Assembly: GCF_965641715.1 (NCBI RefSeq)
Contig: NZ_OZ282453.1
Reading direction: 5' to 3' (one strand)
Length of the DNA stretch: 64,000 nucleotides
From: Escherichia coli
GTDB lineage: Bacteria > Pseudomonadota > Gammaproteobacteria > Enterobacterales > Enterobacteriaceae
Positions within the stretch are counted from its first letter, which is position 1, and every line of letters begins with the position of its first letter. The position numbers were made by a program. Below, in pieces: positions 45,001-51,000 of this stretch.

Positions 45001-48000
45001 GGCAGGCAACACTGAAGGCACAACTTCATCAATTAAATCCTGCACGGAGAACAGCACCGTCTCACTTTTCCAGCTATCGTCCGCAAGCATGTTCGCTAAC
45101 TGTATTTCATCGACCAGCCGCACCAGCACATCTGCCTGATTCGCCAGTTGTTTGCTTTCCGGGGCGTTGAGTTTAGCCGCGCTCTCCGCCAGGGACTGTG
45201 CAGGTTCTTTCAGCGCATCGCCAATGTTTTTCATAAAGGTCATCCGCCCCTGCTGGTTTTTCTCATACAGACGCTGCGCCTGCTTGAGTTTCTTGTTTAC
45301 CAGCACTTCGCGATCCTGATCGCGAATAATGAAAATTTGTGTGCGCGGCGCGACCTGGCTGCGGAACATGCGGATCTCATACAGCTCGTTATTGATCGTC
45401 GCCTGAATAATCCCCTGATGCTGTTCCGCCATGGTGGTGATGTTTTGCAGATTCAAATGCGGCAGCAAATGATCGGCAATTTTGTTACTTATGACAGTGC
45501 GGTTCGATTCCTGATCGTGAACCAGCAGGCCGAGCGGCAGCAGTGAGACTATCTCTTCATTGATTGCCCGTAAAATGCGCAATTCGTTATTGACCGCCGT
45601 GTTGGGTAGACTTTCTGTACTGCGACTGGAGAAATGGCGGAATGTGGTATAGCCAAATAACGCCAGCGCCAGCAAACCGATGTTCAGCAGCAGTGGCAGC
45701 AGAATGTTTTGCAACGTATCCAGCAATAAGGTGCCATAAGGAACCTGCCAGACCAGTCGCATATCGGTAGAGTTGAGTGCCGAGGAGATTTCAATCTTCG
45801 TACTGTTAAAGTGGATACTGACGCTATCCGTCCCTTCTTTCTCATTATCATTGTCTCCCGTTGCCGTCGCGTCTGGCTCAAGGCGGAAACTGTCCAGCGG
45901 CATACCCGGTGGGATCAAATCATTAATCGGCAGATCAAAAGCCACGACCGTTGCCAGATGTCCCGGCTGGTTAAAGGTGGTACGCAAGGTAAAGTAATGA
46001 CCGTTCTGCCAGGCCAGGCGGCGCATGTTAGAAAAACTTTCGCGTTCATCGAGGGCGTTGGCCTGTTGCAACATCTCTGCACGACGTGAATCAACAATGT
46101 CACTGACGGTCGATTCTTTAAATCCGGAGGTGAGATCTTTGAGGGGCAGGGTTGAGATCAGCACCAGACTGTTATCCTGACCATTCAGGTAATACATTGA
46201 CCACGGTACATTTTCTGCGCCCCACAATGTGTCCAGATAGGTGGACATCCGTTGAGTCATCTCAAGCGTTGAGTTGTCGTGAGAGCCAAAGATTAACGCT
46301 TCCGTTTTGCGGCGCGGTTTTTCCAGATAGTAGACATCTTGTTTCAGGCGCGTCTCTTGTAAACCTTCGCCGGAGGAGGGGGAGGTCGTCGCGGCAATGT
46401 TGTCGTAGATCTGCCAGGTCACGTAACGCCAGGTATCGACGCGCTTTTGGATAGCGTGGGTAATGTCGACAATCTGGTAACTTTTATCTTTCAGCCAGGC
46501 GTTAACGGCGCTTTGTACCATTACACCCATCGTCACCAGTAACACAATGATCAACAGTAAAAAGAAGCGGGTAATGCTCCCCGGTAGGAGTGAAAAGCGG
46601 GTCGTGGCCGTTGTCTCTTTCTGACGCATTCGTGTTTATGACCTGTTAAAACTTCGCGAAGTGATAGGGCAGTATAAAGGGTACAGTGTGAAATTCCAGA
46701 CTCTTACCTGATTGATGATTCTCTATTCTCCTGTGATATTTATCATCCTGTATGGGGGGAAATAGATGTACAAGCGCCATTTTGCTGTACAAATAACCTA
46801 CGAAAAGCCCAACGAAATTAATTGCAAATAAACGAAAATTGCTGGAAATTATGCTGATGTTAATTATTTGTGAAATAGTTAACAAGCGTTATAGTTTTTC
46901 TGTGGTAGCACAGAATAATGAAAAGTGTGTAAAGAAGGGTAAAAAAAACCGGATGCGAGGCATCCGGTTGAAATAGGGGTAAACAGACATTCAGAAATGA
47001 ATGACGGTAATAAATAAAGTTAATGATGATAGCGGGAGTTATTCTAGTTGCGAGTGAAGGTTTTGTTTTGACATTCAGTGCTGTCAAATACTTAAGAATA
47101 AGTTATTGATTTTAACCTTGAATTATTATTGCTTGATGTTAGGTGCTTATTTCGCCATTCCGCAATAATCTTAAAAAGTTCCCTTGAATTTACATTTTGA
47201 AACATCTATAGCGATAAATGAAACATCTTAAAAGTTTTAGTATCATATTCGTGTTGGATTATTCTGCATTTTTGGGGAGAATGGACTTGCCGACTGATTA
47301 ATGAGGGTTAATCAGTATGCAGTGGCATAAAAAAGCAAATAAAGGCATATAACAGAGGGTTAATAACATGAAAGTTAAAGTACTGTCCCTCCTGGTCCCA
47401 GCTCTGCTGGTAGCAGGCGCAGCAAACGCTGCTGAAGTTTACAACAAAGACGGCAACAAATTAGATCTGTACGGTAAAGTAGACGGCCTGCACTATTTCT
47501 CTGACGACAAGTCTGTAGATGGCGACCAGACCTACATGCGTCTTGGCTTCAAAGGTGAAACTCAGGTTACTGACCAGCTGACCGGTTACGGCCAGTGGGA
47601 ATATCAGATCCAGGGCAACAGCGCTGAAAACGAAAACAACTCCTGGACCCGTGTGGCATTCGCAGGTCTGAAATTCCAGGATGTAGGTTCTTTCGACTAC
47701 GGTCGTAACTACGGCGTAGTTTACGACGTAACTTCCTGGACCGACGTACTGCCAGAATTCGGTGGCGACACTTACGGTTCTGACAACTTCATGCAGCAGC
47801 GTGGTAACGGCTTCGCAACCTACCGTAGCACCGACTTCTTTGGTCTGGTTGACGGTCTGAACTTCGCTGTTCAGTATCAGGGCAAAAACGGTAGCCCGGA
47901 AGGTGAAGGCATGACCAACAACGGTCGTGAAGCTCTGCGTCAGAACGGTGACGGCGTTGGCGGTTCTATTACTTATGATTACGAAGGCTTCGGTATCGGT

Positions 48001-51000
48001 GCTGCAGTTTCCAGCTCCAAACGTACTGATGACCAGAACTTCGGTCTGAACCGTTATGATGAGCGTTACATCGGTAATGGCGACCGCGCTGAAACCTACA
48101 CCGGTGGTCTGAAATACGACGCGAACAACATCTACCTGGCTGCTCAGTACACCCAGACCTACAACGCAACTCGCGTAGGCAACTTGGGTTGGGCGAACAA
48201 AGCACAGAACTTCGAAGCTGTTGCTCAGTACCAGTTCGACTTCGGTCTGCGTCCGTCCCTGGCTTACCTGCAGTCTAAAGGTAAAAACCTGGGTGTCATC
48301 AATGGTCGTAACTACGACGACGAAGATATCCTGAAATATGTTGATGTTGGTGCGACCTACTACTTCAACAAAAACATGTCCACCTACGTTGACTACAAAA
48401 TCAACCTGCTGGACGACAACCAGTTCACTCGTGACGCTGGCATCAACACTGATAACATCGTAGCTCTGGGTCTGGTTTACCAGTTCTAATCTCGATTGAT
48501 ATCGAACAAAGGGCCTGCGGGCCCTTTTTTCATTGTTTTCAGCGTACAAACTCAGTTTTTTGGTGTACTCTTGCGACCGTTCGCATGAGGATAATCACGT
48601 ATGGAAATAAGCTTTACCCGCGTGGCACTGCTGGCTGCCGCGCTCTTCTTTGTTGGTTGCGATCAAAAACCACAACCCGCCAAAACCCACGCTACTGAAG
48701 TTACCGTTCTTGAAGGCAAAACTATGGGTACCTTCTGGCGTGCCAGCATCCCGGGCATTGACGCCAAACGCAGCGCCGAGCTCAAAGAGAAGATTCAGAC
48801 CCAGCTGGACGCCGACGATCAGCTGCTTTCGACCTATAAAAAAGATTCCGCGCTGATGCGCTTTAACGATTCGCAAAGTTTGTCGCCGTGGCCGGTAAGT
48901 GAAGCGATGGCCGATATCGTCACCACCTCGCTGCGCATTGGCGCAAGGACCGATGGTGCGATGGATATAACCGTCGGGCCGCTGGTGAATCTGTGGGGCT
49001 TTGGCCCGGAACAACAGCCGGTTCAAATTCCGAGCCAGGAACAGATCGATGCGATGAAAGCCAAAACCGGCTTACAGCACCTGACGGTCATTAATCAGTC
49101 GCATCAGCAATATCTGCAAAAAGACCTGCCGGATTTATATGTCGATCTCTCCACCGTCGGTGAAGGTTATGCGGCGGATCACCTGGCACGCTTGATGGAG
49201 CAGGAAGGGATTTCCCGCTATCTGGTGTCGGTGGGCGGCGCGCTGAACAGCCGTGGTATGAACGGTGAAGGCCTGCCGTGGCGGGTAGCGATTCAAAAAC
49301 CAACCGATAAAGAAAACGCGGTTCAGGCTGTGGTGGATATCAACGGTCATGGGATTAGCACCTCTGGCAGCTACCGTAACTATTACGAACTGGACGGCAA
49401 ACGTCTTTCCCATGTTATCGATCCGCAAACCGGGCGTCCCATCGAACACAATCTGGTATCCGTGACGGTGATTGCTCCGACGGCGCTGGAAGCCGATGCC
49501 TGGGATACTGGCTTGATGGTACTCGGGCCGGAGAAAGCCAAAGAGGTTGTTCGCCGGGAAGGGCTGGCGGTTTATATGATCACCAAAGAAGGCGATAGCT
49601 TTAAAACCTGGATGTCACCACAGTTTAAAAGCTTCCTTGTCAGCGAAAAAAATTAAAGCGCAAGATTGTTGGTTTTTGCGTGATGGTGACCGGGCAGACT
49701 AAAGGCTATCCTTAACCAGGGAGCTGATTATGAAAAACGCCACATGCTTAACTGACGATCAACGCTGGCAATCTGTCTTAGCCCGCGACCCGAATGCCGA
49801 CGGCGAATTCGTTTTCGCCGTGCGCACCACAGGCATCTTTTGCCGTCCGTCTTGCCGCGCCAGACATGCCTTGCGGGAAAATGTCTCCTTCTACGCAAAT
49901 GCCAGCGAGGCACTCGCCGCCGGATTTCGCCCCTGCAAACGCTGCCAACCTGATAAAGCCAATGCCCAGCAACATCGGTTGGATAAAATCACCCACGCGT
50001 GTCGACTGCTGGAACAGGAAACGCCTGTAACGCTGGAAGCCTTAGCCGACCAGGTGGCGATGAGTCCGTTCCATCTGCATCGTTTATTTAAAGCCACCAC
50101 CGGAATGACGCCAAAAGCCTGGCAACAGGCCTGGCGCGCTCGTCGCTTGCGCGCATCGCTGGCGAAAGGCGAGAGCGTCACCCAGGCGATTCTGAACGCT
50201 GGATTTCCCGACGGCAGTAGTTATTACCGCAAAGCCGACGAAACGCTGGGAATGACGGCTAAACAGTTTCGTCACGGTGGCGAAAACCTGGCTGTGCGTT
50301 ATGCGCTGGCTGATTGTGAGTTGGGCCGTTGCCTGGTGGCAGAAAGCGAGCGGGGGATTTGCGCGATTCTGCTGGGCGACGATGACGGGATGTTGATTAA
50401 CGAACTCCGTCAAATGTTTCCTGCCGCCGACAATGCGCCTGCTGACCTGATGTTTCAGCAACATGTGTGTGAAGTGATTGCCAGCCTCAATCAGCGCGAT
50501 ACGCCGCTGATGTTACCGCTGGATATTCGGGGAACCGCTTTTCAACAACAAGTCTGGCAGGCGCTACGCACTATTCCTTGTGGTGAAACGGTGAGTTACC
50601 AGCAACTGGCGAACGCGATTGGCAAACCTAAAGCCGTTCGCGCGGTAGCCAGTGCCTGCGCCGCCAATAGATTAGCTATTATTATCCCTTGTCATCGGGT
50701 AGTACGCGGTGATGGCGCACTTTCTGGTTACCGCTGGGGCGTGTCGCGCAAAGCGCACTTGCTGCGCCGCGAAGCTGAACATGAGGAGAGGTAATGTTGG
50801 ATCTGTTTGCTGATGCTGAACCGTGGCAAGAATCGCTGGCTCCCGGCGCGGTGATTTTGCGCCGTTTTGCTTTTTACTCTGCGGAACAACTGATGCTCGA
50901 TATCAGTGACGTTGCCAGCCAGTCGCCATTTCGCCAGATGGTCACCCCCGGCGGATATACCATGTCGGTAGCGATGACCAACTGCGGGCATCTGGGCTGG

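What the first reader, a model, noticed from the sequence alone, without database searches (positions are those of the whole stretch)
47368..48489. OmpC allele with length and sequence differences concentrated in predicted surface loops
The porin is 373 aa here against the 367 aa I recall for K-12. The differing segments (for example [46 protein letters not shown] and [21 protein letters not shown]) fall between conserved beta-strand regions. OmpC loops are a phage and colicin receptor surface and an antigenic target, so this allele may change phage susceptibility or antibiotic permeation.
Basis: partly seen in the sequence, partly recalled or inferred. Interest (0 to 1): 0.45.

Follow-up and report, generated by a model that had tools for sequence, protein, structure and literature searches.

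The report
Known Shigella-type OmpC porin allele
This is an ordinary, intact ompC porin gene carrying an already catalogued allele, identical in protein to the standard Shigella flexneri OmpC, which differs from the K-12 laboratory version almost only in the outward-facing loops that phages and rival bacteria recognise.

Summary
Window 47368-48489 (+) encodes a 373-aa OmpC; K-12 OmpC has 367 aa. The three quoted segments are present at residues 172-192, 215-239 and 304-324.

Against K-12 there are 15 substitutions and three indels: GFTS lost from loop L4, six residues gained in L5, and GVIN gained in L7. A confident structure model places all three indels and 12 of 15 substitutions in extracellular loops L1, L4, L5, L6 and L7 (P about 0.001). 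The exceptions are N154S, G212A and I214V. Constriction loop L3 and the rest of the barrel are identical to K-12.

The allele is not new. The protein is RefSeq WP_000865562.1, which is Swiss-Prot OMPC_SHIFL. It appears on thousands of assemblies and in 4 of 5,426 complete E. coli genomes. Its L5 and L7 types are already catalogued, and loop-concentrated mosaic variation of ompC is published.

Published experiments on these same indels predict no receptor function for phage T4 and possible function for O157 phage PP01. Shigella phages Sf6, Sf22 and KRT47 use S. flexneri OmpC. Nothing supports changed antibiotic permeation.

Verdict: real but ordinary, low interest. The more unusual feature lies next door: an ada-alkB tract imported from a cryptic Escherichia lineage.

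The parts
47368..48489 (+). ompC coding sequence, 373 codons plus stop. The protein is identical to WP_000865562.1 / OMPC_SHIFL.
   Evidence: ORF. NCBIfam NF007841 porin OmpC 760.8 bits against a 484 cut-off. Pfam Porin_1. Exact-sequence look-up. Identical translation in four complete E. coli genomes annotated WP_000865562.1.
47368..47430 (+). Signal peptide, residues 1-21, ending ANA before the mature N-terminus AEVYNK.
   Evidence: The crystallised mature chains 2J1N and 9WCB start at query residue 22. These residues have low pLDDT in the model. They are identical to K-12.
47503..47532 (+). Loop L1, residues 46-55. Carries D47 and S49, where K-12 has N47 and D49.
   Evidence: Non-strand segment between strands 1 and 2 in the model. 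Substitutions listed.
47713..47799 (+). Constriction loop L3, residues 116-144, with PEFGG at 129-133. The amino-acid sequence is identical to K-12.
   Evidence: Model, PEFGG position, and no non-synonymous difference in this range.
47683..48186 (+). Divergent central segment of the mosaic gene, codons 106-273. It holds 28 of the 30 synonymous differences from K-12 and nearly all differences from the O157 allele.
   Evidence: Binomial P = 5.7e-8 for the clustering of synonymous differences. Apart from 2 nt in codons 326-350, the 5' and 3' thirds show no nucleotide differences from the O157 allele.
47881..47952 (+). Loop L4, residues 172-195. Lacks K-12 GFTS (G181-S184) and carries S176, E178, M182 and E188.
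   Evidence: This DNA variant occurs in 8 of 5,426 complete E. coli genomes at 95% identity or more. The sequence KNGSPEGEG...EALRQN is not among the 33 L4 types of PMC5056734 S2; the closest is c2.
48022..48084 (+). Loop L5, residues 219-239, [21 protein letters not shown]. It is six residues longer than in K-12 and more charged.
   Evidence: Identical to L5 type c1 of PMC5056734 S2. Found in 8 of 5,426 complete E. coli genomes.
48163..48198 (+). Loop L6, residues 266-277. Carries N272, where K-12 has S.
48286..48321 (+). Loop L7, residues 307-318, [12 protein letters not shown]. Contains the GVIN insertion (309-312) and N315. It forms the tip of a long beta-hairpin.
   Evidence: L7 type e in PMC5056734 S2. 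Present in 1,606 of 5,426 complete E. coli genomes. GVIN shown essential for phage PP01 adsorption.
47035..47367 (+). ompC promoter, OmpR-binding region and 5' UTR between micF and ompC. One base (47187) differs from K-12, at a site that is polymorphic among the related loci.
   Evidence: That this stretch holds the OmpR boxes comes from my own knowledge of K-12; binding was not tested.
46941..47034 (-). micF antisense sRNA gene, divergently transcribed from ompC. This is the expected neighbour.
   Evidence: Rfam RF00033, 116.8 bits against a gathering score of 79. Same arrangement as in K-12.
48508..48537 (+). Intrinsic terminator of ompC: GC-rich hairpin followed by a T run.
   Evidence: The whole ompC-apbE spacer is identical to K-12.

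Best explanation
This is a normal, functional ompC gene of an E. coli strain. It encodes the trimeric 16-stranded general porin OmpC in its usual chromosomal setting (rcsD, micF, ompC, apbE, ada). Its allele gives a protein identical to the standard Shigella flexneri OmpC.

The pore-forming core and the constriction loop are the same as in K-12, so I infer that it works as the usual osmoregulated diffusion channel. What differs is the outward-facing surface:
- L4 is four residues shorter.
- L5 is six residues longer and more charged.
- L7 carries the GVIN hairpin extension.
- L1 and L6 carry point changes.

The allele is a mosaic. Apart from two bases in codons 326-350, the outer thirds of the gene match the E. 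coli O157 allele base for base. The central L4-L6 part is a divergent block, most simply explained by intragenic recombination. I infer that the different loop combinations are kept in the population by selection from phages, contact-dependent inhibition systems and host antibodies.

Predictions from published work on these same loop features:
- The allele should not serve phage T4.
- It may serve O157 phage PP01.
- It is the OmpC used by Shigella phages Sf6, Sf22 and KRT47.

Shown here: gene identity, allele identity, location of the differences, mosaic pattern, conserved regulatory DNA. Inferred: expression, channel function, receptor specificities, selective cause.
For: Gene and context:
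- ORF and neighbours.
- Family scores: OmpC above its cut-off, OmpF and PhoE below theirs; Pfam Porin_1.
- Best solved relatives are E. coli OmpC structures 9WCB (EDL933) and 2J1N (K-12).

Structure and location of differences:
- Model pLDDT 90.8, TM 0.90/0.97 to 2J1N.
- 12 of 15 substitutions and 3 of 3 indels in loops; L3 unchanged.

Mosaic pattern:
- 28 of 30 synonymous differences from K-12 lie in codons 106-273.
- No nucleotide differences from the O157 allele in codons 1-125 or 276-325, and 2 in codons 326-350.

Allele identity and distribution:
- Exact protein named OMPC_SHIFL / S. flexneri OmpC, on at least 1000 contigs and in 6,412 index blocks.
- Same protein, WP_000865562.1, in 4 complete E. 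coli genomes.
- Only 2-5 synonymous differences across genomes whose flanking genes differ by 0.4-3.6%.
- The window itself is 100% identical over 10.6 kb to an E. coli assembly contig.

Regulation: one base difference from K-12 between micF and ompC, and an identical terminator region.

Literature:
- Loop catalogue and mixing of loop types (PMC5056734).
- Mosaic evolution of ompC.
- GFTS/GVIN engineering for PP01.
- L4 Phe needed for T4, and O157 OmpC not used by T4.
- Sf6, Sf22 and KRT47 use S. flexneri OmpC.
Against: - No expression, conductance or adsorption data exist for this strain.
- Low nucleotide divergence of ompC between genomes could partly reflect strong codon bias and purifying selection rather than recent exchange. 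The recombination inference rests mainly on the clustered synonymous differences and the shared outer thirds.
- The longer L5 sits in the L5/L7 cleft that PP01 gp38 engages, so the PP01 prediction is uncertain.
- The T4 statements in PMC5221442 are given there as unpublished data.
- The organism names of the 4.6-Mb chromosomes carrying the allele (L003, L006, L009) are not given by the tool. I take them to be S. flexneri only from the protein names.
Confidence: 0.9

Rival explanations
1. The loop differences arose in place, by point mutation and small indels under positive selection in this lineage, with no recombination.
For: OmpC has been reported as positively selected, as cited in the preprint read. 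Most amino-acid changes are on exposed loops.
Against: - 28 of 30 synonymous differences from K-12 cluster in codons 106-273 (P = 5.7e-8), while the outer thirds are almost identical in DNA to the O157 allele.
- The same allele, differing by 2-5 synonymous bases, sits in genomes whose flanking genes differ by up to a few percent.
- Loop types occur in many combinations across E. coli.
Confidence: 0.1
2. The allele mainly matters because it changes diffusion of antibiotics or solutes through the pore.
For: Clinical OmpC variants with altered antibiotic transport exist (titles of 2XE1, 2XE2, 2XE3, 2XE5 and 2XG6). Extra charged residues in L4 and L5 (E178, D222, R229, D231, E232, R233) could in principle change the field at the pore mouth.
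Against: L3 and all barrel-wall residues are identical to K-12 except the conservative G212A and I214V. The indels sit at loop tips on the rim. The same allele is the wild type of S. flexneri.
Confidence: 0.07
3. The window comes from Shigella flexneri, and the allele is simply the species' own gene.
For: The exact protein is named S. flexneri OmpC / OMPC_SHIFL. No complete E. coli genome matches the 24-kb surroundings at more than 97.7%.
Against: - The window is 100% identical over 10,651 bases to a contig of assembly GCA_021646925.1.
- The exact Ada and AlkB sequences of this lineage are labelled E. coli by their sources.
- The chromosomes taken to be S. flexneri differ from the window by about 233 of 7,122 bases here.
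- The low 97.7% is explained by the foreign ada-alkB tract.
Confidence: 0.05
4. The gene is a sequencing or assembly artefact, or a pseudogene.
For: None found.
Against: The ORF is intact with a signal peptide and the C-terminal YQF. The protein is identical on thousands of independent assemblies. The promoter and terminator are conserved.
Confidence: 0.01

Closest known systems
Shigella flexneri OmpC (Swiss-Prot OMPC_SHIFL; RefSeq WP_000865562.1)
   Same: Identical over all 373 residues. Same gene neighbourhood. The DNA differs by 2 synonymous bases from the 4.6-Mb chromosomes carrying it.
   Different: The host here is an E. coli lineage rather than S. flexneri, and the flanking genes differ by 1-2%.
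E. coli K-12 OmpC (b2215; PDB 2J1N)
   Same: Same fold (TM 0.90/0.97, rmsd 1.3 A). Identical signal peptide, L2, L3, L8 and nearly all strands. Nearly identical regulatory DNA and micF.
   Different: GFTS deleted in L4, six residues added in L5, GVIN added in L7, and 15 substitutions. The central third of the gene carries about 10% nucleotide differences.
E. coli O157:H7 OmpC (WP_000865552.1; PDB 9WCB), the receptor of phage PP01
   Same: Best solved match (E = 1.7e-223). Same short L4 architecture and same GVIN L7. Outer thirds of the gene almost identical in DNA, with 2 differences in codons 326-350.
   Different: - L5 here is FGLNRYDER in place of SPL, six residues longer.
- L4 has P177 and E178 in place of V and S.
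- S154 and N272 replace N and S.
- 38 nucleotide differences lie in codons 126-275.
OmpC loop-type catalogue of Beck et al. 2016 (PMC5056734, S1/S2 Tables)
   Same: L5 equals type c1, whose representative is TA280 under the same accession WP_000865562.1. L7 equals type e.
   Different: The L4 sequence KNGSPEGEG...EALRQN is not among the 33 listed L4 types; the closest is c2, two residues away. S1 nevertheless lists the TA280 group as c2/c1/e.

Membership tests
Porin OmpC (NCBIfam NF007841; Pfam PF00267 general bacterial porins) | Profile score above the curated cut-off for OmpC and not for the paralogues OmpF and PhoE | tested here: met
   OmpC 760.8 bits against a 484 cut-off. OmpF 476 against 583 and PhoE 451.4 against 599, both below cut-off. 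Porin_1 473.5 bits.
Porin OmpC (NCBIfam NF007841; Pfam PF00267 general bacterial porins) | 16-stranded beta-barrel with an inward-folded L3 carrying PEFGG | tested here: met
   AF2 model with pLDDT 90.8 shows 16 strands plus the N-terminal segment. TM 0.90/0.97 to 2J1N. PEFGG at residues 129-133.
Porin OmpC (NCBIfam NF007841; Pfam PF00267 general bacterial porins) | Cleavable Sec signal peptide and a C-terminal aromatic residue (the beta-barrel assembly signal) | tested here: met
   Residues 1-21 end in ANA, and the mature chain starts AEVYNK as in the crystallised chains. The C-terminus is VYQF. Actual cleavage was not tested.
Porin OmpC (NCBIfam NF007841; Pfam PF00267 general bacterial porins) | Orthologous chromosomal position: rcsD, micF, ompC, apbE/ftp, ada | tested here: met
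Porin OmpC (NCBIfam NF007841; Pfam PF00267 general bacterial porins) | OmpR/EnvZ-dependent expression, trimer formation and channel conductance | not testable with these tools
   Only sequence conservation could be shown: one base differs from K-12 in the 333 bp between micF and ompC.
S. flexneri-type ompC allele (WP_000865562.1 / OMPC_SHIFL) | Identical amino-acid sequence over the full length | tested here: met
   Exact look-up. No amino-acid differences from the CDS annotated WP_000865562.1 in RM14723, 2015C-4136CT1, Z1323HEC0355 and RMDEC465.
Beck et al. loop combination c2/c1/e | L5 = c1 and L7 = e | tested here: met
   [21 protein letters not shown] and [12 protein letters not shown] match the table.
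Beck et al. loop combination c2/c1/e | L4 = c2 (KNGSVSGEG...[12 protein letters not shown]) | tested here: not met
   The window has KNGSPEGEG...[12 protein letters not shown], with P177 and E178 in place of V and S.
T4-type receptor OmpC (K-12-like) | The phenylalanine in loop L4 reported as needed for T4 adsorption | tested here: not met
   The only Phe in K-12 L4 lies in GFTS (G181-S184), which is absent here. The requirement is stated in PMC5221442 as unpublished data. Adsorption itself was not tested.
PP01-type receptor OmpC (O157-like) | GVIN(G) insertion in the L7 hairpin and no GFTS in L4 | tested here: met
   GVING at residues 309-313 and GFTS absent. K-12 OmpC with GFTS deleted and GVIN added in L7 is a full PP01 receptor.
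PP01-type receptor OmpC (O157-like) | O157-like short L5 (SPL) forming the L5/L7 cleft | tested here: not met
   L5 is FGLNRYDER, six residues longer. The paper finds the L5 sequence less critical, so the effect on PP01 is open.

The most novel reading that the evidence does not exclude
The central L4-L6 block of ompC (codons about 106-273) has moved horizontally between E. coli, Shigella flexneri and possibly E. albertii. E. albertii has 373-aa OmpC variants with the same indel architecture and only 14-18 amino-acid differences. As a result, a non-Shigella E. coli displays the S. flexneri OmpC protein unchanged. That would predict shared susceptibility at the OmpC step to OmpC-dependent Shigella phages, with O-antigen and other receptors still deciding overall host range, and shared CDI and antibody epitopes across these named species.
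Probability: 0.5. Interest if true: 0.2.

Novelty: already known. Interest (0 to 1): 0.1.

Why it matters
It matters little as a discovery. Loop-focused mosaic variation of OmpC and this very protein sequence are already described.

In practice the allele call is useful for predicting receptor compatibility. The strain should resist OmpC-dependent adsorption by T4. At the OmpC step it may accept PP01-like phages and the Shigella phages Sf6, Sf22 and KRT47, and it carries L4/L5 epitopes relevant to contact-dependent inhibition. In Shigella, OmpC has also been linked to epithelial invasion (Bernardini et al. 1993, cited).

The locus is also a clear small example of how often this chromosomal neighbourhood recombines. 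Next to a mosaic ompC lies an ada-alkB tract taken from another Escherichia lineage.

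Tried and rejected
- A first AlphaFold2 run used 48 OmpC sequences, all 86% or more identical to the query. It gave an unusable model (pLDDT 32.5). I replaced it with a run on a diverse 78-sequence alignment built from 50%-identity cluster representatives.
- I first suspected the window was Shigella, because the exact OmpC is named S. flexneri and the best E. coli match over 24 kb was only 97.7%. I rejected this after exact look-ups of Ada, AlkB, ApbE and RcsD, and after finding 100% identity with an E. coli assembly contig.
- I looked for the paper on Shigella phages Sf22 and KRT47 (PMC10037218). It is not held, so it is cited only through other papers.
- I checked whether the single promoter-region difference from K-12 (47187) is private to this lineage. 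It is a three-allele polymorphic site among the related loci, so I dropped it as a finding.
- An Rfam scan of 46500-48700 found only MicF. The consensus promoter scan was no better than shuffled sequence, so it was not used.
- The 362-aa antisense ORF inside ompC (47461-48549, minus strand) was not pursued. I take it to be a by-product of codon bias in a highly expressed gene.

Full report
**What is there**

An ATG-initiated ORF lies at exactly 47368..48489 on the + strand and encodes 373 aa (sequence). It scores 760.8 bits against the NCBIfam model for porin OmpC (cut-off 484). It stays below the cut-offs for the paralogues OmpF (476 against 583) and PhoE (451 against 599). It also matches Pfam Porin_1.

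The neighbourhood is the canonical one:
- rcsD on the minus strand at 43957-46629.
- micF at 46941-47034 on the minus strand, Rfam 116.8 bits.
- ompC itself.
- A hairpin-plus-T-run terminator at 48508-48527.
- apbE/ftp at 48601-49656, then ada.

K-12 MG1655 has the same order, as do eight other genomes carrying the same protein.

**Checking the observation**

K-12 ompC (b2215) translates to 367 aa, so the window's protein is 6 aa longer.

The alignment with K-12 gives three indels:
- Loss of K-12 G181-S184 (GFTS).
- Gain of FGLNRY at residues 225-230.
- Gain of GVIN at residues 309-312.

It also gives 15 substitutions and 30 synonymous codon differences.

**Mapping onto structure**

A first AlphaFold2 run on a shallow alignment failed (pLDDT 32.5). 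A second run used a diverse 78-sequence alignment. It gave pLDDT 90.8 and pTM 0.87. This model superposes on K-12 OmpC 2J1N with TM 0.90/0.97 and rmsd 1.3 A, and on EDL933 OmpC 9WCB with rmsd 1.1 A.

Alternation of strands, starting from the periplasmic N-terminus, gives these loops in precursor numbering:

| Loop | Residues |
|---|---|
| L1 | 46-55 |
| L2 | 83-91 |
| L3 | 116-144 |
| L4 | 172-195 |
| L5 | 219-239 |
| L6 | 266-277 |
| L8 | 347-363 |

L7 is the tip of a long hairpin. I delimited it as residues 307-318, following the published L7 alignment. This agrees with the description of loop 7 as a rigid antiparallel sheet.

On this map all three indels lie in loops: L4, L5 and L7. Twelve of the 15 substitutions also lie in loops:
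- L1: D47, S49.
- L4: S176, E178, M182, E188.
- L5: D222, D231, E232, R233.
- L6: N272.
- L7: N315.

Loops make up 134 of 352 mature residues, so this enrichment has binomial P = 0.0012.

The exceptions are N154S, at the periplasmic end of strand 6, and G212A and I214V in strand 9. L2, L8 and the constriction loop L3 with its PEFGG motif are unchanged.

**Which allele it is**

The exact 373-aa sequence is already in public collections. It is named Shigella flexneri outer membrane protein C / OMPC_SHIFL, is seen on at least 1000 contigs, and is listed in 6,412 index blocks.

Among 5,426 complete E. coli genomes:
- Nearly all carry an ompC, but only 7 match at 99% nucleotide identity or more.
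- Four of them (RM14723, 2015C-4136CT1, Z1323HEC0355, RMDEC465) encode the identical protein, annotated WP_000865562.1.

Loop by loop, the frequencies in those genomes are:

| Loop variant | Complete E. coli genomes |
|---|---|
| L7 with GVIN | 1,606 |
| L5 ([10 protein letters not shown]) | 8 |
| L4, at 95% identity or more | 8 |

Beck et al. 2016 catalogued loops from 2,707 E. coli OmpC proteins: 33 L4, 30 L5 and 13 L7 sequences, found in many combinations. In their table the window's L5 is type c1, whose representative TA280 carries the same accession, and its L7 is type e. Its L4 is not listed; the closest is c2, two residues away. Their S1 table nevertheless lists the TA280 group as c2/c1/e.

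E. albertii has 373-aa OmpC variants with the same indel architecture and 14-18 amino-acid differences.

**Source organism**

The window itself is E. coli, not Shigella. Its exact Ada and AlkB sequences are labelled E. coli by their sources. The window is 100% identical over 10,651 bases to a contig of assembly GCA_021646925.1.

**How the allele arose**

The synonymous differences from K-12 are not spread evenly. Twenty-eight of 30 lie in codons 106-273 (P = 5.7e-8).

Against the O157 allele there are no nucleotide differences in codons 1-125 or 276-325, and 2 in codons 326-350. Codons 126-275 carry 38 differences.

The whole gene differs by only 2-5 synonymous bases among genomes whose flanking rcsD and apbE differ by 0.4-3.6%.

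This is the signature of a mosaic gene whose central L4-L6 block was exchanged by recombination, as already proposed for E. coli ompC in general. A caveat applies: ompC is codon-biased, so low divergence alone is weak evidence. The clustering of differences is the stronger argument.

**How it most likely works**

The barrel wall and L3 are the same as in K-12. The promoter region between micF and ompC differs from K-12 at one polymorphic base, and the terminator region is identical. I therefore infer a normally regulated, normally conducting osmoporin. What changes is the recognition surface. Published work bears on each changed loop:

- **T4.** Adsorption is reported to depend on a Phe in L4, and T4 is reported not to use O157 OmpC; both are given as unpublished data in PMC5221442. 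The only L4 Phe of K-12 lies in the GFTS that is missing here.
- **PP01.** This phage needs the GVIN hairpin extension of L7. K-12 OmpC with GFTS deleted and GVIN added in L7 becomes a receptor as good as O157 OmpC. The L5 sequence matters less. The window's allele naturally has both changes, but its L5 is six residues longer at the L5/L7 cleft.
- **CDI.** CdiA of E. coli 536 reads L4 and L5, and many natural alleles escape it.
- **Shigella phages.** S. flexneri OmpC, the same protein, is a secondary receptor of phage Sf6 and is required by Sf22 and KRT47, with charged loop residues implicated.

The antibiotic-permeation argument has no support in the sequence.

**Novelty and verdict**

The gene, the exact allele, its loop types, the concentration of variation in loops and the mosaic mechanism are all published or catalogued. 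This is a correct but ordinary observation, and I score interest at 0.1.

The least ordinary reading still open is recent exchange of the central block across E. coli, Shigella and E. albertii, which puts the unchanged Shigella OmpC protein on an E. coli.

**Seen in passing**

About 1.4 kb downstream of ompC, the ada-alkB segment from about 49,900 to 51,350 differs by 10-16% per 250-base bin from all eight related loci. It matches none of 5,421 complete E. coli genomes at more than 91.5%.

A 24-base probe from this tract hit a single species representative among 100,044: Escherichia sp. E1V33. That genome differs from the window by only 3 bases over 50225-50825, but by 8-9.5% in the apbE-ada stretch to the left.

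This looks like a short tract imported from a cryptic Escherichia lineage. It also explains why the 24-kb surroundings match E. coli at only 97.7%.

Noticed in passing
window 49900-51350 (3' half of ada and most of alkB): This tract is 10-16% divergent from all eight related loci and at most 91.5% identical to any of 5,421 complete E. coli genomes. It is nearly identical to the species representative Escherichia sp. E1V33, with 3 mismatches over 50225-50825, while the flank to the left differs from E1V33 by 8-9.5%. It looks like a short recombination import from a cryptic Escherichia lineage. The exact Ada and AlkB proteins occur on only about 34 contigs. The right-hand boundary and the donor clade are not resolved.
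   Followed up: partly
window 47827-47829 (OmpC residue 154): Ser replaces an Asn that is nearly invariant across the 48 aligned OmpC sequences. The residue sits at the periplasmic end of strand 6. The change is part of the S. flexneri-type allele; the cluster representative P0002 differs from it only by having N154. Its functional meaning is unknown.
   Followed up: no
PMC5056734 S1/S2 Tables, compared with window 47881-47952: The published loop catalogue lists the TA280 group (accession WP_000865562.1) as L4 type c2 (KNGSVSGEG...). The protein under that accession in RefSeq genomes, and here, has KNGSPEGEG. This is either a binning approximation or a small error in the table.
   Followed up: partly
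window 47461-48549, minus strand: A 362-aa ORF runs antisense through almost the whole of ompC. I take it to be a by-product of strong codon bias, which leaves few reverse-complement stop codons, and not a gene.
   Followed up: no
window 47187: This is the only base between micF and ompC that differs from K-12. From my knowledge of the K-12 promoter it lies two bases upstream of the sequence I recognise as the first OmpR box. The site has three alleles (A, C, T) among the related loci, so it is an ordinary polymorphism.
   Followed up: yes
window 27913-30540 (gyrA): GyrA has the wild-type Ser83 and Asp87, so the common quinolone-resistance substitutions are absent.
   Followed up: yes
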